A stretch of 58,141 bases of DNA from a virus. Taxonomy: Duplodnaviria > Caudoviricetes. The stretch covers positions 1 to 58,141 of the IMG/VR virus record IMGVR_UViG_3300025168_000098; one strand, 5' to 3'. Positions 1,235 to 58,141 of this stretch are shown piece by piece (the first letter of the stretch is position 1; each line of letters starts with the position of its first letter). A model generated the notes under the pieces. The model did no database searches, had not been told where the DNA came from, and saw only the letters and a program-made list of their open reading frames with translations. A program made the translations under genes and the position numbers.

Positions 1235-2066
1235 TACCACCTTTACCAAACCTATCATTCTTCCTGAATGGAACAGGCTTGCTGTAAGCCGTTCTTAGGG
1301 TCAATAAATAGTTCTTCAAAACCCTAGATAATCCAGCATAATTCCAAGATTCAGATTGCATCTTTATTCCTGTGATTAAGTCATCTGTATTTACATGATT
1401 ATATTCAGCCATTTGAATCAGACTTGAGGGGTGATTATTCATTTTATTTCCATGATATTTTCCTGATAATATCGCTTGATTCTCTTCGACTCCAAACAAA
1501 TCTTTTGTTCTAACTTCTTCTTCACATCTAAATCCATTTGGAGATGTCAGAAGATTGAGTTCAGCACTTCTCCAAGTTGGAGATATCTCAGAAATATATT
1601 TCAGATGTTCATCATCAAAATCATTTGATTTGGATTTCAAAAAACCGAACAGATTTTCCTTAGAAGGTCTGTTGACTTCAACAAGTAAACTAATCTTCCT
1701 GAGATTGAACGGAACAGATTTCAGATTGATGACAATTATTATCATTGGAGATAATTTCTGACTTGAAAAATCTGATACTATTTTCCAATGTTTTTTTGAT
1801 AGAGAATCAGCATCATCAACAATCGCTATTCTCGATAATCCTGAAAGACTCAATGCTGTTACTTTTGAGAAAGGATATTTACCATTCAAGTCCGATATGA
1901 ATTGGGGTTCAAAACCTGAGTTTGTTGAGTATGATTTTGACAGGGTAGTTTTTCCAACTCCTGATTCTCCATGAATGATTATCGTGTTCATGTTAGATTT
2001 GTTTTTCATTGACCAATTATCTAACAAAGATTTCATTGGTTGATAGATTGATTTTATTCCAATCAT
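1227..2066 (-). CDS. rfcL: Replication factor C large subunit-like clamp-loader ATPase (short)
   Basis: IIIHGESGVGKTT Walker A, IAIVDDAD Walker B; replication context with rfcS and PCNA. Confidence 0.6.
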   Translation of the reverse strand: MIGIKSIYQPMKSLLDNWSMKNKSNMNTIIIHGESGVGKTTLSKSYSTNSGFEPQFISDLNGKYPFSKVTALSLSGLSRIAIVDDADSLSKKHWKIVSDFSSQKLSPMIIIVINLKSVPFNLRKISLLVEVNRPSKENLFGFLKSKSNDFDDEHLKYISEISPTWRSAELNLLTSPNGFRCEEEVRTKDLFGVEENQAILSGKYHGNKMNNHPSSLIQMAEYNHVNTDDLITGIKMQSESWNYAGLSRVLKNYLLTLRTAYSKPVPFRKNDRFGKGGKV

Positions 2067-2254
2067 TTCCAGCCCATCAATGTAGTCTGATTTCTTAGAT
2101 GTTCATTTGTCATATTTGGATTTCTGATATCTGTTGCTTGTGATATTGCAGATAGTATAGATTCCAATTTTTCAATCCTGAGATTTAATTGTTGGATTTG
2201 TAATCTCATATCTTCAATTTCGTGCTGTGCATTTCTCTCATTCTGATTACTCAT
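2063..2254 (-). CDS. Small coiled-coil protein with C-terminal PIP-box-like motif
   Basis: Start moved to MSNQNER (ATG 2254) by promoter spacing; heptad helix; ends NQTTLMGWK; ATGA overlap with rfcL. Confidence 0.65.
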   Translation of the reverse strand: MSNQNERNAQHEIEDMRLQIQQLNLRIEKLESILSAISQATDIRNPNMTNEHLRNQTTLMGWK

Positions 2255-2483
2255 ATCAAAGCCTGATATTCCCACCTTTATCAATATCGTAGTTAGAAGC
2301 ATTTACGAATCTGACTATTCTGATACCAATAGAGACAATCTGAGCCATTTGTTAGATTGTCAGGACTCAGATTACCACCGATATCAAAACGTGGCCTTAG
2401 AATCTCTCTATCGGCATATGTTGAGGCCAACATCTAATATTCTAACTCACGTCAGAAAAAAATTGAGAAAAAATCAGATATTG

Positions 2484-2520
2484 AAAATAAAAAAAAGGGA
2501 GACAACCGAAGTTGCCCCCC
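2484..2520 (-). terminator. Hairpin-U-tract terminator with cUUCGg loop, after cobS-like gene
   Basis: Minus strand GGGGGGCAAC-TTCG-GTTGTCTCCC-TTTTTTTTATTTT. Confidence 0.8.
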
Positions 2521-2595
2521 AATTTTTTTTTCGTCTGTTATTTTTCGCTTGATATCACATCCTTAATTTTTATTTTCTAATCTCCAATTTATTCC

Positions 2596-3840
2596 TTAAG
2601 CCAAATCCTCGATGTTTGCTCTTGCTAGGATTTTAACTTCTTCAACGTCATCAACGTCAAACAATGGGTAAACAACTGTATCAAGAGTTTGTTGCATATT
2701 GTAAACAGATAATGTCTCCATCATAGTTACAAGTGTTCTTGTTCCTAAGTCAGTTGGTTCTGAAAATGTCATTGATTCGTTTGCCTTTCTAACATTGCGA
2801 GCGAACTGAACAATTTCTGTTGCCGCATCTACATTGAAATTACTTGATTGTTCTTGGATAACTTGTATCTCTAAATCACGGCCAAGATAGTCGAAGTCTA
2901 ATGTGTGAGTAAACCTACTTCGTGTTGCATTGTTTAGTGGTGAAGTTCCAGCATAGTTTGGATTCATGGATGCTATAATTCTAAAGTCAGGATGAGCGTG
3001 AAGGACTTCTGCACCTGATGCACTTCCTTTCTGATTTATGACCATATGACCAGCATCTAAAACATCGTTTAATTGACTTAGAACTGCTGGCTTGATGAAG
3101 TTGATTTCATCAATGTAAAGAATGCATCCATGACGCATTGCTTTTGTTAATTGGCCGTCTACGAAATGTGTTTCAGTTCCGCCACTTGGGGTTGTTCTAA
3201 CTAGAAGCATTCCTTGAAGGTCATCCCATTCAACACCAACACCACCAACTATTCTGCAAATTGGTTGGCTGATAAGGCGACCAAACTCATAGATAGCCAT
3301 AGTTTTTCCACAGCCTGTTCCACCCTGAGTCAGCAAAGCCGATTTCATTTTATGACAGAAAGCCATAAACTCTAATTCTGAGCCAACTATACCTTGCTCA
3401 ACGTAGCCCTTTGCTACTGTTGGTATTAGTGCTTGAATATCTGCTGGATAAGCAGACGCATCTTTCTTAGCGATTCCGCAGAATACATTTGGTGATGGTG
3501 CAGATGTCATTCCTGATACAGTTGTAGTGATAGTTGGAGACATTGCTCTAGCCCCTCTAGGTATTGATGTAGTTCCGTTAATTGCCGCTTCGACTTGTTC
3601 ATCAGACCAAACATACTGTTGGCCGTTAATGTCTATTTTTTGTAGTCCAGCACCAGCAAGATTCTTTGCTGTAAAACAATGTGCTTTGAGAGAAGTTGGG
3701 TTTGGTATTCCACCATTTGCCGTGATACTATCGGCTATTTCAGCCAAATAGGTTTCACGGTCAACCCTACCGTTGTGGTCATCAACCACATCGAACATTC
3801 TTTGTTGTGTCTCCGTCATATTTTCATTTCGTGTTGTCAT
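2596..3840 (-). CDS. CobS/MoxR-like AAA+ ATPase
   Basis: GGTGCGKT Walker A, ILYIDEIN Walker B, AHPDFRIIASMNP and LNNATRSRF motifs; start placed at MTTR after a GGAGATGA SD. Confidence 0.85.
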   Translation of the reverse strand: MTTRNENMTETQQRMFDVVDDHNGRVDRETYLAEIADSITANGGIPNPTSLKAHCFTAKNLAGAGLQKIDINGQQYVWSDEQVEAAINGTTSIPRGARAMSPTITTTVSGMTSAPSPNVFCGIAKKDASAYPADIQALIPTVAKGYVEQGIVGSELEFMAFCHKMKSALLTQGGTGCGKTMAIYEFGRLISQPICRIVGGVGVEWDDLQGMLLVRTTPSGGTETHFVDGQLTKAMRHGCILYIDEINFIKPAVLSQLNDVLDAGHMVINQKGSASGAEVLHAHPDFRIIASMNPNYAGTSPLNNATRSRFTHTLDFDYLGRDLEIQVIQEQSSNFNVDAATEIVQFARNVRKANESMTFSEPTDLGTRTLVTMMETLSVYNMQQTLDTVVYPLFDVDDVEEVKILARANIEDLA

Positions 3841-3899
3841 TTTTTTCATCTCCATTTTTTTCAATTTGCCCTTCTCGGCGACTCTTCGGACTGAGTGTT

Positions 3900-4429: not shown

Positions 4430-7071
4430 TCATCTAAACCAACTTGATTCATTCCAACAAGTGAAGTTTTCCAAGAAGTTCTGAATGCACCCAAAATACC
4501 TTCCCAAGATTTCGATTTTGTGAAGTGTTTGTTGAACGATTCTTCCCTGTTGACTTCAACACCAAAAGACTCAGGAGTTTCCCCCCATTCGATTGCGACA
4601 ATTTTGTTTGCTGGAAGATTCCCATTTTTTGTCGAAGATGCATTGAACAAAACGGGCTTGTCTCCAATGTCAAAATTAGTTCCAATATTTTTGTTAGACC
4701 ATAGCCCTGCTTTGTGAGCCTGAGTTCCGGTCTTTTTCATTCCCATCGGCTGACCAAAATCTATACTCGGTGTTTTCTCGACATCCATCAAATCAGAATG
4801 GATTTCTCTTAACAAATTATTAAGTTCAGATTTGTTGCATCCTTGAAGTATAGAATCAAAAACTTTCAACTGTGCATCTTTGACAATCTTGGGTGCAGAT
4901 GACCTTCTAATCTCGACCCCCCTGAATCCATGTTTACCATTGAAATCTCGATACGCATATCTCTTTTTTACACCCCAAGAAAAGAATCTTTCATAGTGTG
5001 CATCAGGCTTCACAAAAAAGAACTCATTCTTCTCAACACCCAATGTCTCCTGAACAAATCTATCGTAGGAATTATTCAACATTATACACAACATATTTGC
5101 TATCGAAATCACATCATCTTTTGTGAAGTCTCTAACTGCATTCTGAGCCTCATCGTGATTGGTTATTGCTACCTTACAGGAATCAGTATCTTGACCTATG
5201 ACATGGAATGATAATTTGATTCCTTCTGCATCTCCAATATCTTCTGTAAAGGGTTCAATACCCAAATCAGAAAACCAAAGATTTGTTGCTTCAATTAAAT
5301 CCTTATTCCATTGATTATGTATTCTCGCAATTTCTGTAATATCTGACCCCAATTCAGGCAATGCTAATCTGAATGGCCTTCGTTTTGTTTTCTCAGTTTC
5401 ACCTGAATAAAGAACTCCATACCAACTATTCATACTCTCCTTCATTACACGCTGACGTTGATTCAATCGGTTGCCTAATTCTTCATCACCATTTTCATAT
5501 GCTTCTCGCATTAATGCCTGTGTTTCTTTTCTAAGAATAGCAAGATTACGAAGAACAGAAGGCATGATTCCTTCTCTATCTCTTCGATAAATCCGACCTG
5601 CTGGCGTAGTAGTAATTGGGAATGGAAATCCATTAGGATAATCTGCTGGATTAACAAGAGTATCAGGACTTCCGTTTGTAGTAATAATCACCGATGGATA
5701 TTCCATTGAATTATCAACTTCAAAGGCATTCTGATAGACTCCAATTGGATTCTCCATGACGAATCCACCTAACTGTATTCCACCTGTTGTTCTTCGCTGT
5801 CTGACAACTTCAACAGAAGGCATAATAATATTCTTTTGAAACAACAAATGCCCCATCATATCTTCGACCAACATCATGTTAGAGTTTGCTTTTCTCATAA
5901 CTGAATTATGGAATGCAGTTTTTGTCAGGTAAAATGGAACAAGATTTAGTTGGTTCATACATCTCTCAACACATACATTATCCCATATGTTATAGACAGC
6001 CAACATCATTGGGTCTTTCTCCATTAATTCTGTAATTCTTGTTCGTGGAACTTTACCATATCCGAGAACAGAACCAGCCATCCAAGCAAGTGAACCTGAA
6101 CCTGTTGTTGCCGCCGCACCTTGAACCTGTTCTGCATATGCAATTTTAGAATCAAATAGTCTTTGTTTTTTGAGCGACCAATATAGATTCGGATAACGAT
6201 GATGAACAGGAACTTTACCAGCATATCTTCTATCCATTTCTTTTCTCATTACTCGACATCTATTTCTCAAATATGGTATATCATATCCGATAATGTGTTG
6301 ACCACCAAGTAAGTCTCTATCTAAATCTTCTAATCTTTTCTTGAACCACCAAAGTAAGGCCGCTTCATTTGTATCTTCATCCATATGAGAAAAGGATTCG
6401 ACTAAGACCTTCTCAGGGTCAAGTGGGGGAATTGGACTAGAATGCTCAACAACGCTCTCTAACGCCTTCCCTGACCCCAAAAATCGCCTAACTTGGTGTT
6501 GGCTAGTCGGAGAAGTAGTTCCAACTTCGTGAATACCCGTTACACTATCAACAAATGCAATACTCACAACTCTTTCAGGGGCATTATCAACATCAAGTGA
6601 ATCTGCTGTTTCAATATCAAACCAAACTATGTCGAGATTGAATCTTGTTGGGTCAGTTTCACTTGGTCGAATGTGAATCGGTCTGAGATTTCTTCCCGAT
6701 GCTAATTCATCCATGTTGATGTCAACAACCGAAGTCCATCCGTAAATCCACCGAACCAAAGAACTCCAAGAAACATCTGCTGAATAATGTGGATAAAAGT
6801 AATCTCTAATCTCTCTAATATCTGACGGCTTCTCAACTCTAATCTCATACAATGGAACGCCTGTTATCGAAGTCTTATCTGAGAGTTTTGTTGACGTAAC
6901 AAAATCAGGAAGATTTGGAATATCATCAGGATTTTTTTCTGACCAAAATCTTGGAACACAACCCTCAACTGTTACCTTTTTTGTTGACCCATCCAAAGCC
7001 TTCAATCTAAGATGAGTTAGAAGATTATTTGTTTCGTCATATTCAATTGATACAATAAGAAAAGATTCCAT
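4417..7071 (-). CDS. polB: Family B DNA polymerase
   Basis: ExoI WFDIET, ExoII GYDIPYL, ExoIII YNIWDN; motifs DNSMEYPS, KESMNSWYG, QDTDS, KKRYA; C-terminal PIP box QVGLDEWF. Confidence 0.95.
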   Translation of the reverse strand: MESFLIVSIEYDETNNLLTHLRLKALDGSTKKVTVEGCVPRFWSEKNPDDIPNLPDFVTSTKLSDKTSITGVPLYEIRVEKPSDIREIRDYFYPHYSADVSWSSLVRWIYGWTSVVDINMDELASGRNLRPIHIRPSETDPTRFNLDIVWFDIETADSLDVDNAPERVVSIAFVDSVTGIHEVGTTSPTSQHQVRRFLGSGKALESVVEHSSPIPPLDPEKVLVESFSHMDEDTNEAALLWWFKKRLEDLDRDLLGGQHIIGYDIPYLRNRCRVMRKEMDRRYAGKVPVHHRYPNLYWSLKKQRLFDSKIAYAEQVQGAAATTGSGSLAWMAGSVLGYGKVPRTRITELMEKDPMMLAVYNIWDNVCVERCMNQLNLVPFYLTKTAFHNSVMRKANSNMMLVEDMMGHLLFQKNIIMPSVEVVRQRRTTGGIQLGGFVMENPIGVYQNAFEVDNSMEYPSVIITTNGSPDTLVNPADYPNGFPFPITTTPAGRIYRRDREGIMPSVLRNLAILRKETQALMREAYENGDEELGNRLNQRQRVMKESMNSWYGVLYSGETEKTKRRPFRLALPELGSDITEIARIHNQWNKDLIEATNLWFSDLGIEPFTEDIGDAEGIKLSFHVIGQDTDSCKVAITNHDEAQNAVRDFTKDDVISIANMLCIMLNNSYDRFVQETLGVEKNEFFFVKPDAHYERFFSWGVKKRYAYRDFNGKHGFRGVEIRRSSAPKIVKDAQLKVFDSILQGCNKSELNNLLREIHSDLMDVEKTPSIDFGQPMGMKKTGTQAHKAGLWSNKNIGTNFDIGDKPVLFNASSTKNGNLPANKIVAIEWGETPESFGVEVNREESFNKHFTKSKSWEGILGAFRTSWKTSLVGMNQVGLDEWFT

Positions 7072-7494: not shown

Positions 7495-7495
7495 T

Positions 7496-8133: not shown

Positions 8134-8361
8134 TCAGTCGGATTCTTCCAACAACTCCGTGTTGAGTTCAACATCGAGAGAATCCAACATAATCAGAATC
8201 CGTTGAAGATAAACTGACAAATCCATAGCCTCTTCCATAGCATGATTTATCCATTCTTTCAAAGTCAAATCTGTTCGTTCCATTGTTGTGTTATATTTGT
8301 TCAAACCCAACTCGGCTCTTTGACGTATTTTTTCTATTACTTTTTCTTCAATTTCGCTCAT
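8134..8361 (-). CDS. MazG-like all-alpha nucleotide pyrophosphohydrolase-like protein
   Basis: GLNKYNTTMERTDL...WINHAMEEAMDLSVY pattern (EExxD), common in marine viruses. Confidence 0.55.
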   Translation of the reverse strand: MSEIEEKVIEKIRQRAELGLNKYNTTMERTDLTLKEWINHAMEEAMDLSVYLQRILIMLDSLDVELNTELLEESD

Positions 8362-9383
8362 ACAGTTATTCTCCTTAGAAATGTCTTGACGGTTAGTAAA
8401 TCATCAGATGAAATTGAACACCAATAAATTGCTTCGCCCATACTTTTGTAAATTGATTTTCTTAATTTATTTGGAACATTAGAATCTTCTTCAACAGTCA
8501 GCAGAAATGCATCTAAAATCTCAACTCCTGACATACCTTTTTCGCCTAAGTTTTCAACCATAGAATCTAGTCGCTGGTGAATCTTGACGTATTTGGAATC
8601 TTCAACACCTAACTTGTTGGATTCAACAGCCAATCCTAGCATTTGTCGAAGTGATTTCTGAGATATTTCGTTAGTGATTTCATTGACATCTTCAATTTCA
8701 ACTCGGATTGGTATGCGAGTAACAGAAAAAAGCAGATTTAATGCACTTCTCATAGAGCCATTTGAAGCCATTCCTACGGCCTCTAGTGCATTCGGTGCTA
8801 TATCGAGATGTTCTTGCTTTACAATAGCCTCTAAAGCCCTGCAAATAGCATCAGATGGGATAGGCTTGAACCTTGAACCTGAGAAAGCACATCTATCCCT
8901 GATTGGTGCAATAACTTTGTGAGGATAATTACAAGATAAAATAAATCTAGTTTGCTTGGAATATTTTTCCATGATTCTTCTCAACGCTGATTGAGCATCA
9001 GAAGTAAGATTATCACATTCATCGAGAAATACAACATTGAATGGAATCAACAAATCTTTTCCATCCTTAGTTTGATATGTTCCAATTGTTCCTCTTCTAG
9101 CGAAGTCTTTGACCGTAGTTCTGATGACATTGATGCTTCTCTCATCACTTGCATTTAACTCGATAAAATTGGCCTTCCAATCTTCACCAAACATAGATTT
9201 CATCAGGGCTACTGCAACTGATGTTTTTCCTGTTCCAGCCTTGCCTGAAAACATCATATGAGGAAATGCACCATCATCACCATTCTCATGTAATTTCTCA
9301 ACTACATACCTGAGTCTTTTCACTATATGTTCCTGACCAACAATATCATTAAGATTATTTGGGCGATATTTTTCAGACCACAT
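8358..9383 (-). CDS. rfcS: Replication factor C small subunit
   Basis: WSEKYRP, GKAGTGKT, ELNASDER, LDECDNLT, AQSALRR, RDRC motifs. Confidence 0.95.
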   Translation of the reverse strand: MWSEKYRPNNLNDIVGQEHIVKRLRYVVEKLHENGDDGAFPHMMFSGKAGTGKTSVAVALMKSMFGEDWKANFIELNASDERSINVIRTTVKDFARRGTIGTYQTKDGKDLLIPFNVVFLDECDNLTSDAQSALRRIMEKYSKQTRFILSCNYPHKVIAPIRDRCAFSGSRFKPIPSDAICRALEAIVKQEHLDIAPNALEAVGMASNGSMRSALNLLFSVTRIPIRVEIEDVNEITNEISQKSLRQMLGLAVESNKLGVEDSKYVKIHQRLDSMVENLGEKGMSGVEILDAFLLTVEEDSNVPNKLRKSIYKSMGEAIYWCSISSDDLLTVKTFLRRITV

Positions 9384-9993: not shown

Positions 9994-10857
9994 CTAAGCC
10001 GAATCATTTTTTTCTCCCTGTAAAACTGAGAGTATTCTGTTTGCTGTGTTGAGGCCAACACCTTCGATTGTCGAGAGTTCTTCCGGTGTCGTTTGACAAA
10101 GTGAAATTATTGTTGGATATTTTTTGGTAATCCTTCTTCTTAATTTTGAACCGATTTTTGGTAATCCTTCAATCAGACAATCTCGATATTCATTTACAGT
10201 TGGAGATTTTGGTCGAGGCACATACAGTCTTGGATTATCATCTTCTATTTTCTGAACTATCTTGTGAGTCAGTAATGAGGCATCGTGTCTATTGTCAATA
10301 AAAATTGGTGGATATCCAACAGCACATAGAGATGCTATGAAAGAGATTAGAGTTTGCTCACTAACACCCCTATCCCTTGCACCTAATCTAATCGCATCGT
10401 AAGACTTTGAAACAATTAGGTAGGAGTATTCAGCCTCTTCTCTCATAGCACCCAACTGCTTGAGCCTACGGCCATCAAACAGGGAAGGAATAAAGTCATC
10501 TTCCTTACGTTCTATACTGACCTTTCTTGTTGATACATCACCCTTACCTGTATCAAGACTAACTATCTCAAAACCAAGTTCAGAAAGATAGGTCAGCATT
10601 TCTTTGTGTTCTCTATGGTCAACCCGTCTATGTCGAGAAAACAACTCATTCAAAATCATCTGATTGACAAGTGGAAAAATCTCATCTGAACTTGGAGAAA
10701 TTGACAATGATTGCGTGTTGGCTTCAACAAGTTCCACAGTTAAGAATCGAGAGAATCCCAGCAGTTGACCAAGTGAAGCAGAATCGAGGAAATCAATTAG
10801 TTCAGAACGGTCATCAAGTAATCTTCCATATCTTGTCTTACGTTGATTTGTTTTCAT
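9994..10857 (-). CDS. ERCC4/XPF-family structure-specific endonuclease with HhH
   Basis: VDHRE...GD...IERKEDDF...DGRRLKQL nuclease motif; C-terminal LPKIG/IEGVG HhH pair; start placed at MKTNQ. Confidence 0.85.
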   Translation of the reverse strand: MKTNQRKTRYGRLLDDRSELIDFLDSASLGQLLGFSRFLTVELVEANTQSLSISPSSDEIFPLVNQMILNELFSRHRRVDHREHKEMLTYLSELGFEIVSLDTGKGDVSTRKVSIERKEDDFIPSLFDGRRLKQLGAMREEAEYSYLIVSKSYDAIRLGARDRGVSEQTLISFIASLCAVGYPPIFIDNRHDASLLTHKIVQKIEDDNPRLYVPRPKSPTVNEYRDCLIEGLPKIGSKLRRRITKKYPTIISLCQTTPEELSTIEGVGLNTANRILSVLQGEKNDSA

Positions 10858-12037
10858 CCCGTTTCGACCATTTGCGTTTAATCTGACGGGGTTGATAATC
10901 CATGCCCCCCATATCCTTGAATCGAGGACAAATATCGCCCACACAACAGCCATTCGCTTTGAGCGTAGTGCAGTTTGGAAAGATGTAATATTTTGGGTCA
11001 TCGAAGATAGTTGACATCTGATACAGCCGATGTTCAGTATTGTGTAAATCTACATATCCAATTTCAGTTCCTAACTGCATCCATATCTTTTCAAAATCAT
11101 GCAAACCCATTCCCAATATTTTAGCAAACAAAGCAGAATAAACTCTCGGTTTATGTGGTGGATTTCTTCTCTTTAATTCATTGACAACTCCCATACATCT
11201 TCTATCTAAGGATGCAAGAAATCGAGATGCTTCCGCATCGGTTTGAGCAATGTTGAAGTCAACATTTACAACAGGCCGAAGCAATGATTCAGGAGAATGT
11301 AATTTTACTCCGAGTTCCTTTACAAAATCAATCAGTTTCAATTTCCTTCCATTGATTTTAGGCAACTCATATTTTGGGCGATACGACATCTTTTCAATGT
11401 CCTCATGTGATAGTGTATCGAGAAGTTCCACATCAACAGGCATTGCGTGTCGGCCACTACTATTTCCATGTCTATCTATGTGCTTAGAAAAAGGAAATCT
11501 GCACAGTCTTTTGGGGTCGCCTGTTGTCTGTTCATCAAGTGTATTCAGACCTATCGTTTTACGCAAATGGTCTTGTGTTTGATGCACGATTTGTTTCAAG
11601 GCTTCACCACTTCCATCCTTGAAGTCAAACTTGAATCTTGTAGCCTCATGGACTATGAATAAATGATATCCTTTACTGCCACTATATTGAACCCAATGAG
11701 CCACATTCATTTCTCTCAAAAACGAAGATAATCTTTGAGCATCTGCAAATGCATTTTCAGGTTTTGATGAATGGTCAAAGTCGAAGAAAGTGAGTTCGTA
11801 AACAATTGTTTTTGGAGATTGTTTATTGCCAACTTCATATTGTAAATTATCATATCCACCTGTGCTTATGAAACAAGATTTATTTCCATTCCATTTTGAA
11901 TAAGACCGATAGATATCTTCCGTAGCAAAGACAAAGTTTTGACGTGGATTTCCTATGGCTCTTGGATAGTGTTTGAATCCAAAATGATTAGCCATTTCAT
12001 CAATGTTGTCAACATCAAATAAACTCATCTCAATCAC
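10838..12037 (-). CDS. Archaeo-eukaryotic primase, PriS-PriL fusion
   Basis: FFDFD, YSGSKGYH and DPKRLCRFP AEP motifs; C-terminal Cys set (RC...NCTTL...CC...ICP) like the PriL Fe-S domain. Confidence 0.85.
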   Translation of the reverse strand: MIEMSLFDVDNIDEMANHFGFKHYPRAIGNPRQNFVFATEDIYRSYSKWNGNKSCFISTGGYDNLQYEVGNKQSPKTIVYELTFFDFDHSSKPENAFADAQRLSSFLREMNVAHWVQYSGSKGYHLFIVHEATRFKFDFKDGSGEALKQIVHQTQDHLRKTIGLNTLDEQTTGDPKRLCRFPFSKHIDRHGNSSGRHAMPVDVELLDTLSHEDIEKMSYRPKYELPKINGRKLKLIDFVKELGVKLHSPESLLRPVVNVDFNIAQTDAEASRFLASLDRRCMGVVNELKRRNPPHKPRVYSALFAKILGMGLHDFEKIWMQLGTEIGYVDLHNTEHRLYQMSTIFDDPKYYIFPNCTTLKANGCCVGDICPRFKDMGGMDYQPRQIKRKWSKRDENKST

Positions 12038-13058: not shown

Positions 13059-13202
13059 AATTTTACATCGGTTCGCCCACCGATATAAATGAAGTCATTT
13101 TGTGAAGTTATGGATTTTCGGGCTTGAATCAATTGAGATGTTGACCTCAACATGGAATGTTTGAAAAAAACTGCAAAAAAAACTGCGGAAAAAATCGAGA
13201 AA

Positions 13203-15661: not shown

Positions 15662-15666
15662 TTCAA

Positions 15667-18883: not shown

Positions 18884-18910
18884 ACTACTCATCCGTTTAT
18901 CCCACCCTTT

Positions 18911-21176: not shown

Positions 21177-21201
21177 ACGTGTTGAGGCCAACATCAAAGT
21201 T

Positions 21202-45468: not shown

Positions 45469-45794
45469 GCTTCTTCGGTGTTGGCTTCAACAGCCTCAGA
45501 AAGACGTGCTACGAGTTCCGCTTTTGTTCCCGATGTTGAAAGTCCTTTTTCTTTGCACATTTCTATTAATTCTGCTTTCTTTTTAGCATCCATAGCCGAA
45601 GTAACTTCATCAACTGCTTCAACAACATCATCAATCTTACTTTCACTCTCAGTCAAAGTATCAATTATTTCGTCAAGACTTACTTTACCATCAGCCATAA
45701 TTTTCTGATACTTTTTCAATCCCCATACTGTCAGTCCGAGAACTGCCGCTAAGACAGCAATCCATAATTCTAATTCTACACCATATATCTGCAT
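45465..45794 (-). CDS. Membrane-anchored SAP-domain protein
   Basis: TM WIAVLAAVLGLTVWGL; DGKVSLDE; C-terminal KKKAELIEMCKEKGLSTSGTKAELVARL. Confidence 0.75.
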   Translation of the reverse strand: MQIYGVELELWIAVLAAVLGLTVWGLKKYQKIMADGKVSLDEIIDTLTESESKIDDVVEAVDEVTSAMDAKKKAELIEMCKEKGLSTSGTKAELVARLSEAVEANTEEA

Positions 45795-48333: not shown

Positions 48334-48585
48334 AATCTTACGAATATCAATAGAAGCGTTTCTGAGCGTTTTTTGGGGTCGGTGGTAGGTATTGACCCAA
48401 ACCCCCCTAGAGTCCGTCAGATTGGCTGTAAATAGTCAAATATGGGAAAATACGGGTTTTGACCCCTGATGGAATACAGAATGGTAGTATTTCGATAAAA
48501 AATAGTCAGAAATGTAAATATTTAGATTTGTAATAAATCTGAAAAAAAGGTGTTGAGTGCTTTTTCGACCATGTTGGACTCAACA

Positions 48586-48867: not shown

Positions 48868-48970
48868 AATCATCGAAGGAGAAATTACGGTTAATTACTG
48901 TTGATGTCAACAGGTATATCTGAGATGACAGAAAAAGATTTTTGTGAATTGGAGAATGTAGATGACGGAT

Positions 48971-49189: not shown

Positions 49190-51345
49190 TCTACTAATTC
49201 CCCTGCTTTGTTTTGGAAGGAAACTTTAGTATCTTCATCCAGCCAATTATCTGCTTGGTCTTTGTTGTCGAAAGTCATAATGACTGAGTTAGTTTCTAGG
49301 CATACAACAGCCCATGAACCGCCTTCTAATTGCATAACAACTCGGCTTACTTCATTTTCCATTTCTGTCTCAATTAACTTTGCTGATTTCTTACCATGAG
49401 GCAGACCTGCATTCTTAGCACAGGTTGCACCATATCCATGAGTCATTGAAACATCTGTTGAAAGGTGCTTGGAACAGAAGCAACAGTAGCCACTTTTTCG
49501 ACCTAATCTACGGATAGTTGAGATTGGGTCTGCACGAAGGGATTGAAGAACAATCCAAGTATCGTCAGGAAGCCCCATTGAAGGGGTCATACTGCCGTTG
49601 AAACGGTTTACATTACCTCTTGCTAGGGTTGCACCTGTTTGGATGAATCTTCGGCTATCCTGAGATGATGCTCTTTCTGCTTCTGTAAACTGTAATTCTG
49701 CCGCTTCGGTTGTTCTTGTTTTTTTGTCAAAGAAGTTTAATGGGCGAATCACTAATTCTCTTTGGAACGCATCAAAAGTTTCAACGCCTTTTGTTCCGTA
49801 TTTTGGAACGCATGGTGCTGGTGCTTCTTTAGTGTTGGAGTCAACAACCAAAGTGATGATTGGGTGTTTCAAAGGTTTGCCGTTTTCTGAACCTTCAAAC
49901 TGATTGAATAGTTCAACAACTGCATCCCATCCATCTTGCACTTTAGTAGTGTCAGGATTAGATGCAATTCCTTTCTTGGTTAATTCCCCAACCCAATACA
50001 TTTGCTTGTCAGAAAGACGGCCATATTTATTCCATCCACCAATTAAATCAATTGCGAAGTTTTTGTCTCGACCTGTAAGACTTTCATGGACTTCTTTTAG
50101 AGCATCAATTTTTGGATTTCCACCACGACTTGCTTGAGGCGTATTTAGTTCTTTGACGTAATACATCTGAGAAGAAGAAAGTTTTCCATTTGCTAAAAAT
50201 TGACTAACTAAAGATTTAGCGAAACTAATACTTCTGTTAGGAACTGTTCCCATGTCTAAAGCATCTTGAAGTGCCGCAATCTCAGGATGAGCATGACGTG
50301 TCTCAACATCAGTTTCAACAACTGAATTATTTTTAGAATCAGGCAATGCTGAAAATTGTTTTTCTGAGATGAAACTTAGACCTGTTGCATTGCAGTATTC
50401 ACAGGCACTACCTTTGTTGTATATATTGCCCGAAGTCCTACCGACTCCTTTACAGCATTGACAGGCCACTAGAACAGCACCCTTTAGTGAATTACCCCAA
50501 TTTGCAGATAGTTGTTTTACATATGGTTTTTTGTTGCTTCCATTCTTGAGTTGTTTAACAGAAGGCTTGGTGCTATTTGTTGTTATTATATCGAAAGATG
50601 CTGGACGTGATAAAATACGATTAAGGTTAGGTAGTTTGAATGGTTTGTCGTCATATTGACCACCTGAGACTACTTTCATACCAACAATAGAATGGAACAA
50701 AATACCATCCTCACAAACATAATAATATTCTCCATTTGAATCAGTTTTTCTTTGAACAAGTATAGACCTTCTCAGCCTATCATATCTTGCTGATATTGTT
50801 CCATTGATGGTGTTGCTCATACCATAGTAATTCAAAGGGATGTGAATAGTCTCAGGAGAAGAACCATCTTTGAATCCACATATCAGATTTCTTGTCTCAT
50901 ATCCATTACCCATATTTTTTTCTCCATAGATTCCAACATCGTGAGATTTGGCCGCAACATTCCAACTTCTCGGCATGAGAACTTTGGCTGATTGCCTATC
51001 TCCATTCTTGACTAATTCAAGTAAATCTTTCTGCGTAGTATGAGCCAAAGAAATATTCCTTCCCCACCAATCAATCGGTGAATCATATTTCTTGACACCA
51101 AAATTATTTTCACGGACTTGACCACCAAACCGACTGTATGCAATTGGTATGTGGCTTATATCCTCAGTTTGTATCAATGCGTAGTGTTGATGCTCGTCAT
51201 CGTTTGTTGGCTGTTTAACAACAAGTCCTGTTGATTGTAATTTCATTTTTATTCGATTATATCTTTGAATTGGTGTTAAGTCATGTAAGAAATCTGTTGA
51301 AGAAATCCTACTTTTTGGGTCATTTAGTGTGTTTTCTGTTATCAT
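49186..51345 (-). CDS. Multidomain protein with DnaJ-type Zn finger and DUF6011-like C-terminus
   Basis: CQCCKGVG/CEYCNATG; two FA..L......G.LS..QMY.V.EL repeats; CCFCSKHLSTDVSMTHGYGATCAK. Confidence 0.7.
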   Translation of the reverse strand: MITENTLNDPKSRISSTDFLHDLTPIQRYNRIKMKLQSTGLVVKQPTNDDEHQHYALIQTEDISHIPIAYSRFGGQVRENNFGVKKYDSPIDWWGRNISLAHTTQKDLLELVKNGDRQSAKVLMPRSWNVAAKSHDVGIYGEKNMGNGYETRNLICGFKDGSSPETIHIPLNYYGMSNTINGTISARYDRLRRSILVQRKTDSNGEYYYVCEDGILFHSIVGMKVVSGGQYDDKPFKLPNLNRILSRPASFDIITTNSTKPSVKQLKNGSNKKPYVKQLSANWGNSLKGAVLVACQCCKGVGRTSGNIYNKGSACEYCNATGLSFISEKQFSALPDSKNNSVVETDVETRHAHPEIAALQDALDMGTVPNRSISFAKSLVSQFLANGKLSSSQMYYVKELNTPQASRGGNPKIDALKEVHESLTGRDKNFAIDLIGGWNKYGRLSDKQMYWVGELTKKGIASNPDTTKVQDGWDAVVELFNQFEGSENGKPLKHPIITLVVDSNTKEAPAPCVPKYGTKGVETFDAFQRELVIRPLNFFDKKTRTTEAAELQFTEAERASSQDSRRFIQTGATLARGNVNRFNGSMTPSMGLPDDTWIVLQSLRADPISTIRRLGRKSGYCCFCSKHLSTDVSMTHGYGATCAKNAGLPHGKKSAKLIETEMENEVSRVVMQLEGGSWAVVCLETNSVIMTFDNKDQADNWLDEDTKVSFQNKAGELVE

Positions 51346-52349: not shown

Positions 52350-52502
52350 TGTTCACATCTCCTGTGTAATCCGTATCTGACAATCCCACCCTAATAAATG
52401 AATACTTTTCTGACAATGAATATGCTTCTGACCAAACTTCGTCAAACAATTGGAACGGTGGGATTATTGAAATCAGATTGAATGTTGGCTTCAACATCAT
52501 CC

Positions 52503-53234: not shown

Positions 53235-53510
53235 TTAAGGATTCATTAATGTAATTCTTCTAGCATTATAATCTGAAACTGCATTGTAATCCACATTCCA
53301 TTTCTTGACATCATCTGTTGGATTCAACAATCTGACATTCTGAAAATAAACATCAAATCCCAATGAAGAAAATAACTCTTTGAAATAAGTAATTTCCATT
53401 CCTGTATTCTGCATTCTCATAATGACTTTTCGATTCCCCAAATTATCTGTTGCGAGATGTAGTTCTCGACCTTCTTCTGCTTCGACCAGCAAATACGATA
53501 CTTCGACCAT
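53235..53510 (-). CDS. Hypothetical protein
   Basis: Likely start MVEVSY within the ORF-track frame 53235-53636. Confidence 0.5.
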   Translation of the reverse strand: MVEVSYLLVEAEEGRELHLATDNLGNRKVIMRMQNTGMEITYFKELFSSLGFDVYFQNVRLLNPTDDVKKWNVDYNAVSDYNARRITLMNP

Positions 53511-53657
53511 GACTATTCGGAATGTATTGGGGTTTTTTATTCCGCCTATTTCCGAGCCGATTAACCATATGAACTCAAGACTATATAAACTGTGCAAGAT
53601 TTCCAAAAACCATTTTTTCGATGTTGGCTTCAACACGGAGTTTTTGCTGGTGATTAC

Positions 53658-54894: not shown

Positions 54895-54931
54895 TTTTTC
54901 TCACTACTCCCTGTTGGCCTCAACACCTGAT

Positions 54932-57002: not shown

Positions 57003-57220
57003 TCTTCCACCTCTTCTTTCCATGCTTCATTCTCCACAAGTTTCCGTGCAGTTTTCACTCGTCTTTCATGTTCTTCAAGTTCTGCTTTAGCATGATGTAA
57101 ACAGCCGTTCACAGTATCGTAGATTTGTTGTAATTCAGTAACACGTATCTGTGCCATTATACGACTATCTTCCCTTATTCTCCATTCTCTCTTCATTGAT
57201 TCCTCTATATTTTCATTCAT
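56999..57220 (-). CDS. Coiled-coil hypothetical protein
   Basis: 73 aa within a coupled operon. Confidence 0.6.
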   Translation of the reverse strand: MNENIEESMKREWRIREDSRIMAQIRVTELQQIYDTVNGCLHHAKAELEEHERRVKTARKLVENEAWKEEVEE

Positions 57221-57343
57221 TTATTCATCACCTTCCATTTTTTCCCAACAAGTAGGGCAAATAACCCCACCATTTTGATAGCGAAAGATTTCACCATCTT
57301 TGAATACTCTTCTTCGGCACATAGTCATAATGCAGGGATTCAT
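57221..57343 (-). CDS. 40-aa Cys microprotein
   Basis: MNPCIMTMCRRRVFKDGEIFRYQNGGVICPTCWEKMEGDE; coupled at both ends. Confidence 0.55.
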   Translation of the reverse strand: MNPCIMTMCRRRVFKDGEIFRYQNGGVICPTCWEKMEGDE

Positions 57344-57540
57344 GCTTCCACCCCACTATCATCATTAGGTTTTGGAAATCCAAAGTTGGCTCTAAGATAT
57401 TTAAGATGTGGAATCAAAGCCTCTTCTAAAATCAATAATTCATGTTTGTTCAATTTAACTAAGAAATGTAAATCAACATCTGTCGCTGTTTCTATACCCT
57501 TCGCTTGAAACGGGTTAAAAGTAAAATCCTTATTATTCAT
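57340..57540 (-). CDS. Hypothetical protein
   Basis: Start MNNKDF through an ATGA overlap. Confidence 0.6.
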   Translation of the reverse strand: MNNKDFTFNPFQAKGIETATDVDLHFLVKLNKHELLILEEALIPHLKYLRANFGFPKPNDDSGVEA

Positions 57541-57689
57541 GCTTCCACCCATCCTGTTGAAAGCGAATATACCATACCTGCTTCGTGATTCTTCCTACAT
57601 TCTTTTATTCCACAACAAAATGCTTGAACATATTGTTGTCCTCTATCATATCTGATTAATTGACAATAAGGGCATCTGTAACTACTCAT
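57537..57689 (-). CDS. 50-aa Cys microprotein
   Basis: MSSYRCPYC...FCCGIKEC...WVEA; ATGA overlaps at both ends. Confidence 0.55.
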   Translation of the reverse strand: MSSYRCPYCQLIRYDRGQQYVQAFCCGIKECRKNHEAGMVYSLSTGWVEA

Positions 57690-57952
57690 TCTTCCACCCC
57701 GAACATATCACAAATACAATCAGGACATACTAAAATGTGGTTGTAAGTTTTAATTTGTCTGAAAACTTTCATAGATTTGGTAGAACTGTATGAACTTCCA
57801 CTATGGCAGAATGTAGCATATTGTAATACATCATATTTACAATGATGACAAGACACATAGATTCTATCTTTTTGAAATCTCTTTCTAGGTCTAAGATTCA
57901 TGTCTTTCTTTTCAGCAATTATATTCATATGTGGGTTGTGTTTATATTCCAT
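57686..57952 (-). CDS. Small Zn-ribbon protein
   Basis: CHHC and CPDC; start uncertain (57952 or 57928). Confidence 0.55.
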   Translation of the reverse strand: MEYKHNPHMNIIAEKKDMNLRPRKRFQKDRIYVSCHHCKYDVLQYATFCHSGSSYSSTKSMKVFRQIKTYNHILVCPDCICDMFGVEE

Positions 57953-58141
57953 TTTTTCATTTCTCCTTTATCTCCGCTATACGCTTCGGCAAGCCTTCGG
58001 ATAGAGTGTTCGCATATCAATGCTTTCATTTCTGATTATTTTCCTTTCTGATAGTCTCTAAGAAATCTTTTGTAATCTTCTGAAATATTTTTTTCCTGTT
58101 CAGGCTGGGCGATAGGGATATCAGATGTTGGCTTCAACATT

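What the first reader, a model, noticed from the sequence alone, without database searches (positions are those of the whole stretch)
1670..58139. Genome-wide 14-bp palindrome TGTTG-RNNY-CAACA, about every 1.8 kb, inside and between genes
Seen: at least 32 exact copies by manual scan (starts 1670, 2419, 4548, 6714, 8160, 8615, 10047, 10716, 11251, 13139, 15735, 18517, 21180, 23591, 26444, 26570, 31448, 33824, 35604, 36085, 40152, 42496, 45479, 47682, 48572, 48899, 49833, 52483, 53316, 53622, 54912, 58126). Every copy has an R-N-N-Y spacer. With about 35% GC (estimated by eye), a zero-order model expects fewer than 0.1 copies; I saw only single cases with 1- or 3-nt spacers. Copies occur across all modules. 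They lie in intergenic gaps (2419, 13139, 21180, 48572, 48899, 52483, 54912) and in coding DNA in more than one frame (VEAN/VDVN/VELN, LLSPT/LLNPT), often in C-terminal tails or linkers. This points to selection on the DNA itself. Inference: the dyad with a fixed spacer suggests a site for a dimeric protein coating the whole genome, like bacterial matS (GTGACRNYGTCAC), parS or Noc/SlmA sites. Possible roles are genome compaction or tethering, self-marking against viral or host nucleases, or packaging. I know of no such system described for archaeal tailed viruses.
Basis: partly seen in the sequence, partly recalled or inferred. Interest (0 to 1): 0.92.

Follow-up and report, generated by a model that had tools for sequence, protein, structure and literature searches.

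The report
Virus-wide palindromic DNA mark with dialects
This marine archaeal tailed virus carries 32 exact copies of a 14-base palindrome spread evenly through genes and gaps, and its relatives carry the same kind of mark with symmetric spelling changes, so it looks like a fast-evolving genome tag read by a still unidentified paired DNA-binding protein.

Summary
Selection acts on the DNA itself. Synonymous-codon shuffles give 0.71 in-gene copies against 24 observed. In a relative about 10% diverged, 30 of 30 alignable sites are intact, with 0 of 300 arm positions changed against 8.3% in the flanks. Spacing is more even than random.

The main new result is that related viruses carry symmetric "dialects" of the motif: TGTCG..CGACA, TATTG..CAATA, TATYG..CRATA with mixed half-sites, TACCG..CGGTA and TGTTC-YRYR-GAACA. 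Some sites stay at the same codon across dialects. Two complete relatives lack the motif. In 81 cellular genomes of the presumed host order it occurs about once per Mb, against about 550 per Mb in the virus.

My best reading is a recognition site for a two-fold symmetric double-stranded-DNA reader that co-evolves with its sites and acts as a genome-wide self-mark. A weak lead is a winged-helix plus RHH dimer gene, which lies outside the window. The closest known case is the 17-bp dyad repeat of Cluster O mycobacteriophages.

The parts
1670..1683 (.). motif copy, in gene 1227-2066(-), frame 2
   Evidence: intact at the orthologous place in G001
2419..2432 (.). motif copy, intergenic
   Evidence: intact in G001 with a spacer change
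4548..4561 (.). motif copy, PolB gene 4417-7071(-), frame 2
6714..6727 (.). motif copy, PolB gene, frame 2; the same codon carries a TATYG-type site in G003, G096, G097, G009, G008 and G002
8160..8173 (.). motif copy, in gene 8134-8361(-), frame 2
8615..8628 (.). motif copy, RFC-like gene 8358-9383(-), frame 2
10047..10060 (.). motif copy, ERCC4-HhH gene 9994-11001(-), frame 2
10716..10729 (.). motif copy, ERCC4-HhH gene, frame 2
11251..11264 (.). motif copy, PrimPol-like gene 10838-12037(-), frame 2
13139..13152 (.). motif copy, intergenic
15735..15748 (.). motif copy, gene 15667-16845(-), frame 2
18517..18530 (.). motif copy, gene 16880-18892(-), frame 2; the same codon carries TATYG-type sites in G009, G097, G096, G003 and G002
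21180..21193 (.). motif copy, in the 25-bp gap between convergent genes
23591..23604 (.). motif copy, gene 23082-24206(-), frame 2
26444..26457 (.). motif copy, gene 25275-29936(-), frame 2
26570..26583 (.). motif copy, gene 25275-29936(-), frame 2
31448..31461 (.). motif copy, tape-measure-like gene 29936-32215(-), frame 1
33824..33837 (.). motif copy, glycosyltransferase gene 33552-34913(-), frame 2
35604..35617 (.). motif copy, small Cys/His-rich (HNH-like by eye) gene 35581-35847(-), frame 2
36085..36098 (.). motif copy, SNase-like gene 36007-36360(-), frame 1
   Evidence: this segment does not align with G001
40152..40165 (.). motif copy, prohead protease gene 39280-41142(-), frame 2; the orthologous place in G093 carries that genome's own dialect
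42496..42509 (.). motif copy, portal gene 41788-44208(-), frame 1; the orthologous place in L062 reads TGTCG..CGACA
45479..45492 (.). motif copy, SAP-domain gene 45465-45794(-), frame 2; reads TGTCG..CGACA in L062
47682..47695 (.). motif copy, TerL gene 46816-48333(+), frame 2; the same place reads TGTCG..CGACA in L060-L062 and TATYG-type in G002, G003, G096 and G097
48572..48585 (.). motif copy, intergenic (between convergent gene ends)
48899..48912 (.). motif copy, intergenic
49833..49846 (.). motif copy, gene 49186-51345(-), frame 2
52483..52496 (.). motif copy, intergenic
53316..53329 (.). motif copy, gene 53235-53636(-), frame 1
53622..53635 (.). motif copy at the start of ORF 53235-53636(-), frame 1
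54912..54925 (.). motif copy, intergenic
58126..58139 (.). motif copy 2 bases from the contig end, intergenic by my gene map
   Evidence: not alignable with G001

Best explanation
The 14-mer is a cis-acting DNA element kept by strong selection on the double-stranded sequence. It is most likely the recognition site of a two-fold symmetric (homodimeric) sequence-specific DNA-binding protein. Each subunit would read one half-site of the form T-R-Y-Y-S-R, and the central two bases would go unread. Reader and sites co-evolve, so related viruses carry private 'dialects' at a similar density of about one site per 1.5-3 kb. I favour a virus-encoded reader and a genome-wide self-marking role, meaning it gives some DNA transaction (protection, condensation or organisation, silencing or partition) specificity for the virus's own genome as against host or competitor DNA. 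I do not favour promoter control. What is shown: the enrichment, DNA-level purifying selection, even spacing, symmetric dialect switches, independent half-sites, and near-absence from the presumed host genomes.
For: Enrichment: 32 copies against 0.02-0.17 expected, and only at spacer length 4.

DNA-level selection: 24 in-gene copies against a mean of 0.71 (max 4) in 300 synonymous-codon shuffles. 16 of 17 frame-2-compatible peptides and 6 of 7 frame-1-compatible peptides actually encode the motif. Those peptides are themselves 5-10 times commoner than in residue shuffles (17 vs 1.73; 7 vs 1.36). Site density is 0.45 per kb in coding DNA and 1.7 per kb in non-coding DNA.

Conservation: all covered sites are intact in 7 close relatives (30/30, 7/7, 8/8, 7/7, 6/6, 4/4, 2/2). 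Against G001 there are 0 of 300 arm differences, compared with 146 of 1766 in the flanks and 9.8% genome-wide. In 2000 random draws of 30 sites, the arm-position differences averaged 28.6, with a minimum of 8. R/Y positions changed at 10 of 60 while all 34 G001 copies keep R..Y, and the central NN changed at 8 of 60.

Symmetry and half-site independence: every dialect change is mirrored in both arms (TGTCG, TATTG, TACCG, TATCG, TGTTC). In G003, G096, G097 and G008, mixed TATTG/TATCG half-sites are common (22, 21, 18 and 12 hybrid sites).

Concerted switching in place: sites 47682, 42496 and 45479 read TGTCG..CGACA in L060-L062. Sites 6714, 18517 and 47682 are TATYG-type sites at the same codon in genomes whose PolB is 54-60% identical.

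Density and spacing: G003 has 36, G096 33, G097 35, G093 27 and L062 12 copies, against 0.2 or fewer expected. The spacing CV is 0.54-0.63 with P at most 0.004 in G000, G001, G003, G096 and G097.

Not a host-wide motif: each of 81 cellular genomes holds 0-7 copies, and the 11 host copies I fetched lie in ordinary open reading frames of 225 to 1000 codons (5 of them in one conserved gene).
Against: No reader was identified. Using G002 ORFs as queries, only one family was present in all motif-bearing complete genomes and unseen by tblastn in the motif-less G094 and G095. That family is a beta-rich protein of about 95 aa with no known DNA-binding fold and a tandem paralogue, sitting just before a giant fibre gene. 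A profile search also finds weak syntenic homologues of it in G095 and G008.

G094 and G095 encode the same conserved proteins as the motif-bearing genomes, including the winged-helix plus RHH candidate, yet they have no motif.

No motif copy sits in front of that candidate's operon.

The all-or-none pattern in this window, with no excess of one-mismatch sites, is sharper than usual for regulator sites and would also suit an enzyme.

A host-encoded reader is not excluded.

Even spacing is not significant in G002, G093, G008 or L062.

No expression, binding, methylation or nicking data could be obtained.
Confidence: 0.55

Rival explanations
1. The motif is the target of a sequence-specific DNA enzyme (an orphan methyltransferase or other base modifier, a nickase, or a restriction-like nuclease) and is kept at high density as with cyanobacterial HIP1. 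The 'reader' would be an enzyme, not a structural binder.
For: Recognition in this window is all-or-none and 12 positions long. The site is palindromic with an unread centre, as in many type II enzymes (recalled). N6/N4 methyltransferase genes occur in G003, G096 and G097, and a C5 methyltransferase gene in G096. HIP1 is linked to orphan methyltransferases (PMC4390886, abstract seen in the listing).
Against: None of the three DNA methyltransferase families searched was found in G002 or G093, both complete and motif-bearing. Pfam scans of about 60 window ORFs found none either. The G003 copy carries an in-frame TGA. Targets of restriction enzymes are normally avoided, not accumulated (established knowledge).
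Confidence: 0.12
2. The motif works like a stoperator: a viral repressor binds sites across the genome to block transcription from either direction, and dialects mark different immunity groups.
For: Cluster A mycobacteriophages have 20-30 repressor sites throughout the genome. Their motifs and repressors diverge between heteroimmune relatives (PMC6550527, passages read). The present case shows dialect divergence between close relatives and sites not tied to promoters.
Against: Stoperators are asymmetric, oriented with transcription and bound by a monomer, whereas these sites are symmetric. No integrase or partition gene appeared in the Pfam scans of the window, although the window is only 72% complete. 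Most sites lie inside genes at no particular position.
Confidence: 0.12
3. The motif is a Chi-like signal read on single strands by a viral or host helicase-nuclease. It stops degradation and promotes recombination, and being palindromic it works from either direction.
For: The virus encodes a PD-(D/E)XK (RecB/Cas4-type) nuclease at 13546-14742 and an XPD-like helicase at 21202-22980. Exact-match dependence, even spacing and lineage-specific spelling also fit Chi (recalled).
Against: Known Chi sites are short, asymmetric and strand-biased (recalled). A fixed 14-bp dyad with symmetric R/Y degeneracy and freely mixed half-sites points to a dimer on duplex DNA. Changes in similarity between close relatives do not coincide with sites (a coarse test).
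Confidence: 0.08
4. The reader is a host protein, such as a host replication, chromatin or defence factor, and dialects track different host lineages.
For: Dialects go with large differences in GC content (37% to 57%), which suggests different hosts. No viral gene correlates cleanly with the motif.
Against: Viruses whose TerL is 90% identical have different dialects. Presumed host genomes carry only about one copy per Mb, and the 11 copies I fetched lie in ordinary open reading frames of 225 to 1000 codons (5 of them in one conserved gene). The host order was inferred, not named.
Confidence: 0.08
5. The motif is a hairpin formed in RNA or single-stranded DNA.
For: The arms are complementary. 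Hybrid sites show a weak orientation bias towards the G-U-compatible strand being the sense strand (44 vs 25, p=0.03).
Against: The stem is only 5 bp. 25 of 69 in-gene hybrid sites would have a C-A mismatch on the sense strand. The R and Y positions do not pair preferentially (no G..C combination among the 32 copies). Sites are the same on both strands and occur in genes of both orientations.
Confidence: 0.02
6. The pattern is chance, codon or peptide bias, a mobile mini-element, or an assembly artefact.
For: None beyond the fact that most copies encode V-[D/E]-x-N.
Against: The shuffle controls argue against it. The motif occurs in two reading frames and in intergenic DNA. It is present in independently assembled relatives, in place. 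Flanking sequence is not conserved.
Confidence: 0.01

Closest known systems
Cluster O mycobacteriophage 17-bp dyad repeat (5'-TGTTCGGNNNCCGAACA), more than 30 copies per genome (PMC4351075; passages read)
   Same: It is a tailed-virus genome of about 70 kb with roughly 30-34 exact dyad-symmetric sites scattered through the whole genome. Sites lie between and inside ORFs and mostly away from promoters. The authors predict a dimeric binder, and the function is unknown. The outer arm letters TGTTC..GAACA equal the G093 dialect found here.
   Different: Its architecture is 7-3-7, not 5(6)-4(2)-5(6). It occurs in bacterial viruses. Most of its sites are intergenic or near gene starts. The passages I read describe no dialect series or switching in place. 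Any homology of the readers is unknown.
Cluster A mycobacteriophage stoperators and immunity repressor (PMC6550527; passages read)
   Same: There are 20-30 binding sites throughout the genome, most not at promoters. The site motif and its reader diverge among related phages, giving separate specificity groups.
   Different: Stoperators are asymmetric 13-14 bp sites, oriented with transcription and bound by a monomer, in temperate phages.
Bacterial ParB-parS and Noc-NBS (recalled, not from a call)
   Same: Both use palindromic sites read by a dimer. As I recall, the parS and NBS spellings differ at the second position in the same way (TGTT.. versus TATT..), and a few reader residues switch the specificity.
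   Different: The sites are 16 bp. There are few of them (parS), or they spread over a chromosome at about 1 per 60 kb (NBS). No ParB_N domain was found in 5 related genomes or in the window's ORFs.
HIP1 of cyanobacteria (PMC4390886; abstract seen in the listing)
   Same: It is a short palindrome iterated at very high frequency, including within coding DNA.
   Different: HIP1 is 8 bp, a property of cellular genomes, and tied to orphan methyltransferases. Here the motif is viral, the presumed host lacks it, and methyltransferases are not universal.
DNA uptake sequences (DUS/USS) with dialects, and Chi sites (recalled)
   Same: Both are exact short words at about 1 per 1-5 kb, tolerated in coding DNA in preferred frames.
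   Different: Both are asymmetric words of cellular genomes, read during DNA uptake or by RecBCD/AddAB.
Papillomavirus E2 sites ACCG-N4-CGGT (recalled)
   Same: They are palindromes with a 4-bp unread spacer, present in multiple copies per viral genome and read by a viral dimer that serves replication, transcription and genome tethering.
   Different: It is an animal virus with 4-17 sites, mostly in the control region. There is no evidence of relatedness.

Membership tests
ParB-parS / Noc-NBS | A ParB/Noc-type protein (ParB_N domain) is encoded | tested here: not met
   PF02195 was found in 0 of 5 related genomes at E<=1, while the control search found it in 11 of 14 reference genomes. No such hit appeared in the Pfam scans of the window ORFs.
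ParB-parS / Noc-NBS | A 16-bp palindrome, clustered near an origin (parS) or sparse over a chromosome (NBS) | tested here: not met
   The site is 14 bp, occurs about once per 1.8 kb, and is evenly dispersed.
Cluster A stoperator system | An asymmetric 13-14 bp site oriented with transcription and bound by a monomer | tested here: not met
   The sites are dyad-symmetric. Hybrid half-site orientation relative to the gene strand is 44:25.
Cluster A stoperator system | The site motif diverges among related viruses together with its reader | tested here: inconclusive
Site dialects are shown. The candidate winged-helix plus RHH protein differs in its putative recognition helix between a TGTTG contig and a TGTCG contig, but no more than elsewhere in the protein.
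Cluster A stoperator system | A temperate life style (integrase or partition genes) | tested here: inconclusive
   None was seen in the Pfam scans of the window, but the window is only 72% complete and I did not search the relatives for integrases.
Cluster O-type genome-wide dyad repeat | About 30 or more exact dyad-symmetric sites scattered over a tailed-virus genome, inside and between ORFs, mostly away from promoters | tested here: met
   There are 32 sites, 24 in genes and 8 intergenic.
Cluster O-type genome-wide dyad repeat | The same sequence and architecture (7-3-7, TGTTCGG NNN CCGAACA) | tested here: not met
   The arms are 5 (or 6 counting the R/Y positions) with a 4 (or 2) spacer.
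HIP1-type iterated palindrome | A cognate orphan DNA methyltransferase is always present | tested here: not met
   PF01555, PF00145 and PF02086 were all absent from G002 and G093, both complete and motif-bearing.
HIP1-type iterated palindrome | The motif is enriched in the cellular genome | tested here: not met
   81 genomes of the presumed host order hold 0-7 copies each. By my hand sum that is about 137 copies in about 141 Mb, against about 45 for the reversed control pattern.
Chi | A short asymmetric word with strand bias, read by a RecB-family helicase-nuclease | tested here: not met
   The motif is palindromic. A PD-(D/E)XK nuclease and a helicase are present, but that alone does not make the motif Chi.
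MITE / REP-like mobile repeat | Conserved flanks or a longer unit, with insertion polymorphism | tested here: not met
   The flanks diverge at the background rate. Sites are in frame at conserved codons. Among close relatives, 30 of 30 sites are in place with none gained or lost in aligned DNA.

The most novel reading that the evidence does not exclude
These archaeal viruses carry a private, fast-evolving 'genome identity code'. It is a strictly spelled palindrome written about every 2 kb, even at the cost of protein sequence, and read by a viral dimer so that a protective, condensing or exclusion machinery acts only on DNA with the right dialect. Dialect switches, which pass through permissive intermediates such as TATYG, would then isolate co-infecting relatives from one another. 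That would be a viral self/non-self system of a kind not yet described.
Probability: 0.25. Interest if true: 0.9.

Novelty: new variant of a known kind. Interest (0 to 1): 0.82.

Why it matters
The mark shapes about 24 peptides in this genome and has been kept in place across deep divergence, so it must serve something central to the virus, yet nothing known in archaeal virology accounts for it. The dialect series includes a permissive intermediate and sites that switched spelling in place. That makes it a natural experiment on how a DNA reader and dozens of dispersed sites change specificity together. The dialect could also be a simple sequence label for classifying these abundant ocean viruses, and possibly for predicting which of them can exchange genes or exclude each other.

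Tried and rejected
1. Flank conservation or a longer unit. There is none in the window. G002 adds an outer C/G and G093 an outer A/T.

2. Its putative recognition helix is identical in TGTTG, TACCG and TGTTC-type genomes, and the protein is present in motif-less G094 and G095. Rejected as the dialect determinant.

3. ORF 14774-15682 (Walker-A protein). At first it seemed to correlate with the motif. But G008 turned out to carry the motif, and G094 and G095 have this gene. Rejected.

4. ORF 48586-48873, which is flanked by two motif copies. It is a Gly/Thr-rich protein with no hit to a DNA-binding family. Rejected.

5. The ~95-aa protein family (outside the window). It has pLDDT 82.4 and is beta-rich, the best PDB fold match has E 0.19, and it has a tandem paralogue before a giant fibre gene.

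6. The winged-helix plus RHH protein (G001 56927-57496, outside the window).
   - The AF2 model has pLDDT 81.4.
   - The top fold matches are winged-helix domains, but the best E is 0.06.
   - There is a weak hit to PF10723 (E 0.033).
   - The homodimer model scores 0.61 against a best control of 0.00. That mark was reached by 20 of 30 proteins solved as pairs and by 1 of 23 solved as single chains. The runs agree in at least 82% of their contacts, and the partner's pLDDT is at least 77. The interface covers residues 116-161. RHH dimers are textbook, so the pass may come from likeness to solved structures.
   - The protein is universal, including in motif-less genomes, and no motif copy lies upstream of its operon.
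   - I keep it as a lead only.

7. ParB_N search: none found.

8. Mosaic boundaries versus sites: no visible link.

9. Sequencing runs. 24 runs are listed and all are kept as Logan contigs. No RNA holder is listed and there are no raw reads, so fragment ends, nicks and expression could not be examined.

10. Named relatives. tblastn of the capsid protein against the phage collection found only one distant hit, and the protein search gave no informative names. 'Magrovirus-like' therefore rests on three things: the gene set compared with PMC5434244 (passages), the marine origin, and a related contig in a MAG titled as an archaeon.

11. Literature. 'palindrom', 'motif', 'repeat', 'methyl' and 'inverted' occur 0 times in PMC5434244. 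PMC11706807 has no relevant passage. Four papers hold both 'magrovirus' and 'palindrom', and I saw them as listings only. The searches gave no archaeal-virus case.

I did not use the look-up of encoding contigs, which is closed.

Full report
**What the window is.** The window is a whole IMG/VR virus record of 58,141 bases. It is linear and estimated 72% complete. Nearly all genes lie on the minus strand.

Pfam scans show a tailed-virus structural module:
- HK97-type capsid protein, 38176-39237
- prohead protease, 39280-41142
- portal, 41788-44208
- large terminase, 46816-48333 (on the plus strand)
- tape-measure-like protein, 29936-32215

They also show an archaeal-style replication and recombination module:
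- family B DNA polymerase, 4417-7071
- RFC-like clamp loader, 8358-9383
- PrimPol-like protein, 10838-12037
- ERCC4-HhH nuclease, 9994-11001
- PD-(D/E)XK nuclease, 13546-14742
- XPD-like helicase, 21202-22980

This gene set resembles that described for magroviruses (PMC5434244, passages read). The sequence is held by marine metagenome runs. A related contig sits in a MAG titled as an archaeon. I therefore call the virus magrovirus-like by inference; no tool named it.

**The observation.** Dinucleotide-preserving shuffles expect 0.02. With a free 4-base spacer the same 32 are found, with 0.17 expected. Every other spacer length from 0 to 20 gives 0-2 copies. GC content is 37.7%.

Sites with one mismatch number 3 (2.6 expected), and sites with two mismatches number 25 (21.4 expected). 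In this genome the motif is therefore all-or-none.

With a curated gene map, 24 copies lie in genes. Of these, 19 are in the frame that reads V-[D/E/G]-x-N, 5 are in the frame that reads L/V-L-x-P/S-T, and none is in the third frame. The other 8 copies lie between genes. Site density is 0.45 per kb in coding DNA and 1.7 per kb in non-coding DNA. Position within genes is unremarkable (mean 0.62; 8 of 24 in the last quarter).

**Selection acts on the DNA.** Shuffling synonymous codons within each gene leaves a mean of 0.71 in-gene copies (max 4 in 300 shuffles) against 24 observed. An earlier run on an automatic gene set, which included two probably spurious plus-strand ORFs, gave 0.83 against 23.

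Of the peptides that could encode the motif, 16 of 17 (frame 2) and 6 of 7 (frame 1) actually do. These peptides are themselves far commoner than in residue shuffles (17 vs 1.73; 7 vs 1.36). The motif therefore dictates some amino acids.

**Conservation in close relatives.** G001 is 64.9 kb and differs at 9.8% of 51,785 aligned positions. It holds 34 copies. All 30 window sites that can be aligned are intact at the orthologous place, and the other two lie in unaligned DNA.

Across those 30 sites the ten arm positions show 0 differences in 300. By comparison, the 60 flanking positions show 146 in 1766. Random sets of 30 places showed a mean of 28.6 arm differences, with a minimum of 8 in 2000 draws. 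The R and Y positions changed at 10 of 60 and the two central bases at 8 of 60. All 34 G001 copies still fit R..Y.

Six further partial relatives, at 5-11% divergence, keep every covered site: 7/7, 8/8, 7/7, 6/6, 4/4 and 2/2.

**Spacing.** Gaps between sites are more even than random placement. The coefficient of variation is 0.63 in the window (P 0.004-0.006) and 0.60 in G001 (P at most 0.001).

**Dialects in relatives.** I fetched relatives through PolB and TerL. They do not carry TGTTG..CAACA unless they are very close to the window. Instead they carry the same 5-4-5 architecture with mirrored spelling changes:

| Genome(s) | Relation / status | Motif | Copies (expected) |
|---|---|---|---|
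| L060-L062, L187 | TerL 90% identical | TGTCG-RNNY-CGACA | 12 in 16.9 kb in L062 (0.00) |
| G002 | complete | C-TATTG..CAATA-G, with looser inner bases | 25 (0.70) |
| G003 | complete | TATYG-RNNY-CRATA | 36 (0.07) |
| G096 | complete | TATYG-RNNY-CRATA | 33 (0.15) |
| G097 | 97% complete | TATYG-RNNY-CRATA | 35 (0.05) |
| one contig of MAG G011 | | TACCG..CGGTA | 8 (0.00) |
| G093 | complete | (A)TGTTC-YRYR-GAACA(T) | 27 (0.20) |
| G005-G008 | incomplete | mostly asymmetric variant, TATCG-N4-CAATA | |

In the TATYG genomes the two half-sites mix freely. Hybrid TATTG/TATCG sites number 22, 21 and 18, roughly as expected if each half-site is chosen independently.

Even spacing is again significant in G003, G096 and G097 (CV 0.54-0.61, P at most 0.003). 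It is not significant in G002, G093, G008 or L062.

Two complete genomes, G094 and G095, have no such motif: 0 and 1 copies of the TATYG pattern, and no dominant half-site pair. Their TerL is nevertheless closer to the window's than that of G002 or G003.

**Sites switch spelling in place.** Window sites 47682 (TerL), 42496 (portal) and 45479 read TGTCG..CGACA at the aligned positions in L060-L062.

Mapping through protein alignments extends this. The PolB site 6714, the site 18517 and the TerL site 47682 are TATYG-type sites at the same codon in G002, G003, G096 and G097, and partly in G008 and G009. Site 40152 carries G093's own dialect in G093. The motif-less G094 and G095 have unrelated letters at most of these places.

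Per genome only 0-4 of 4-13 mapped sites coincide, so most sites turn over. The coincidences may partly reflect codons that happen to suit the motif.

**Host genomes.** The MAG that carries a related contig gave a handle to its taxonomic order. In 81 genomes of that order (1.2-2.2 Mb each) the window's motif occurs 0-7 times per genome. By my hand sum of the table that is about 137 copies in about 141 Mb, against about 45 for the reversed control pattern. This is roughly 1 per Mb, against 550 per Mb in the virus.

All 11 host copies that I fetched lie in open reading frames of 225 to 1000 codons. Five of them fall in one conserved gene of about 700 codons. I could not confirm the name of that order.

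**What the anatomy implies.** Four features fit two identical subunits that each read one half-site on duplex DNA:
- strict two-fold symmetry;
- symmetric purine/pyrimidine degeneracy next to an unread central dinucleotide;
- dialect changes that are always mirrored;
- freely mixed half-sites in permissive lineages.

A hairpin is unlikely. The stem has only five pairs, R and Y show no pairing preference, and 25 of 69 in-gene hybrid sites would place a C-A mismatch on the sense strand.

The TATYG genomes look like the permissive intermediates one would expect when a reader drifts from one spelling to another while its sites follow.

This did not succeed.
- No ParB_N domain is present in five related genomes.
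- DNA methyltransferases are present in only three of five complete motif-bearing genomes.
It also occurs in motif-less genomes.
- With G002 ORFs as queries, the only family found in all motif-bearing complete genomes and not found by tblastn in G094 or G095 is a beta-rich protein of about 95 aa. It has no PDB fold match. It has a tandem paralogue and lies before a giant fibre gene. A profile search finds weak syntenic homologues in G095 and G008. It is probably structural.

A better-looking lead lies in the part of the genome that the window lacks, at G001 56927-57496. It is a fast-evolving protein of 160-190 aa with two domains.
- The N-terminal domain is winged-helix-like. The AF2 model has pLDDT 81.4, and the top fold matches are winged-helix domains, although the best E-value is only 0.06.
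- The C-terminal region looks like a ribbon-helix-helix, with a weak PF10723 hit at E 0.033.
- It is modelled as a homodimer through that C-terminal region. The score is 0.61 against a best control of 0.00. That mark was reached by 20 of 30 proteins solved as pairs and by 1 of 23 solved as single chains. The runs agree in at least 82% of contacts, and the partner's pLDDT is at least 77. The pass may reflect likeness to solved RHH dimers.
- Its putative recognition helix is invariant in three TGTTG contigs and differs at four positions in a TGTCG contig. Overall identity there is only 74%, so this is not more change than elsewhere in the protein.
- It is present in the motif-less genomes, and no site lies upstream of its operon.

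I rate it a lead, not a finding.

**Function.** Even spacing, a similar density across dialects, placement regardless of gene position, and rapid divergence between close relatives all suggest a mark that must cover the whole genome and be private to a lineage. I therefore favour a self-marking role for a DNA transaction such as protection, organisation, silencing or partition. I hold this loosely.

The rivals are an enzyme target, stoperator-like silencing, a Chi-like signal and a host-encoded reader. They are listed with their evidence in the rival explanations. None is excluded except chance, codon bias and mobile repeats.

**Comparison with what is known.** The nearest described case is the 17-bp dyad repeat of Cluster O mycobacteriophages. 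It has more than 30 copies per genome, lies inside and between genes, is predicted to bind a dimer, and has no known function. Its outer letters TGTTC..GAACA equal the G093 dialect, which may be coincidence.

Cluster A stoperators share the genome-wide distribution and the divergence of motif and reader between relatives. They differ in being asymmetric, oriented and bound by a monomer.

The parallels with ParB/Noc sites, HIP1, DNA uptake sequences, Chi and papillomavirus E2 sites are parallels of logic, not membership; the membership tests are listed separately.

I found no mention of such a motif for magroviruses or other archaeal viruses in the searches I ran. Supplementary files could not be read.

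**Limits.**
- All relatives are metagenomic assemblies, and several are incomplete.
- Host identity is inferred.
- The gene-content comparison rests on tblastn at E<=1e-3, so it cannot see very fast-evolving small proteins.
- The spacing and orientation tests are simple.
- No binding, modification, nicking or expression data exist for these viruses in the tools available.

Noticed in passing
window 46816-48333: The large terminase gene is one of only two clear plus-strand genes in the window. In G002 the orthologue lies on the same strand as its neighbours, which suggests a local inversion in the window's lineage.
   Followed up: no
window 35581-35847: This small Cys/His-rich ORF has, by eye, a layout like an HNH (His-Me finger) endonuclease: CxxC ... 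HH ... CxxCH. Pfam gave no hit. It is conserved in most relatives, including the motif-less ones.
   Followed up: partly
window 41788-44208: The portal protein has a long C-terminal extension with a weak Mu-F-like match. Only about 46% of the G002 orthologue aligns in the motif-less G094 and G095, against 84-98% in motif-bearing genomes.
   Followed up: no
G095 (loci L147-L151), e.g. 14818, 43848, 46169, 75202-79795: A different palindrome, TATAA-N8-TTATA (often TATAAC-N6-GTTATA), occurs 12 times. Several copies cluster at 75-80 kb, and some have a GAAA-type loop. This genome lacks the main motif.
   Followed up: partly
G002 2015-2366 and 78169-80515; G094, G095: High counts of GGACC-N4-GGTCC and GGTCC-N4-GGACC come from repetitive coding DNA in very large fibre-like genes (collagen-like by eye), not from a binding motif.
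   Followed up: partly
G001 57679-57966 and 58043-58324 (loci L028): Two tandem paralogous beta-rich proteins of about 95 aa share a G-x-G-C-x-(D/N)-P signature. They lie directly upstream of a 2177-aa Thr/Ser/Gly-rich fibre-like gene. The family has only 32 representative clusters in the large protein library.
   Followed up: partly
G003 28118-28675; G096 77170-80337; G097 69297-70574: DNA methyltransferase genes (N6/N4 type, plus a C5 type in G096) sit in the same variable region as the small proteins above. The G003 copy has an in-frame TGA.
   Followed up: no
loci L173, L174, L175, L177, L178 (cellular genomes of the presumed host order): The same 14-mer with an AAAT/ATTT spacer recurs inside one conserved gene of about 700 codons, encoding ...VTVEINKR..., in several genomes.
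   Followed up: partly
window, central dinucleotides of the 32 copies: Counting both strands, only CT/AG, GG/CC, TG/CA, GT/AC and AT occur as the central dinucleotide. AA/TT, GA/TC, TA, CG and GC are absent here, although AA and TA occur in G001. This may reflect coding constraints.
   Followed up: no
window 9994-11001 and 10838-12037: The two ORFs as listed overlap by 164 bases, so the true start of the upstream gene (9994-11001) is probably later than listed.
   Followed up: no
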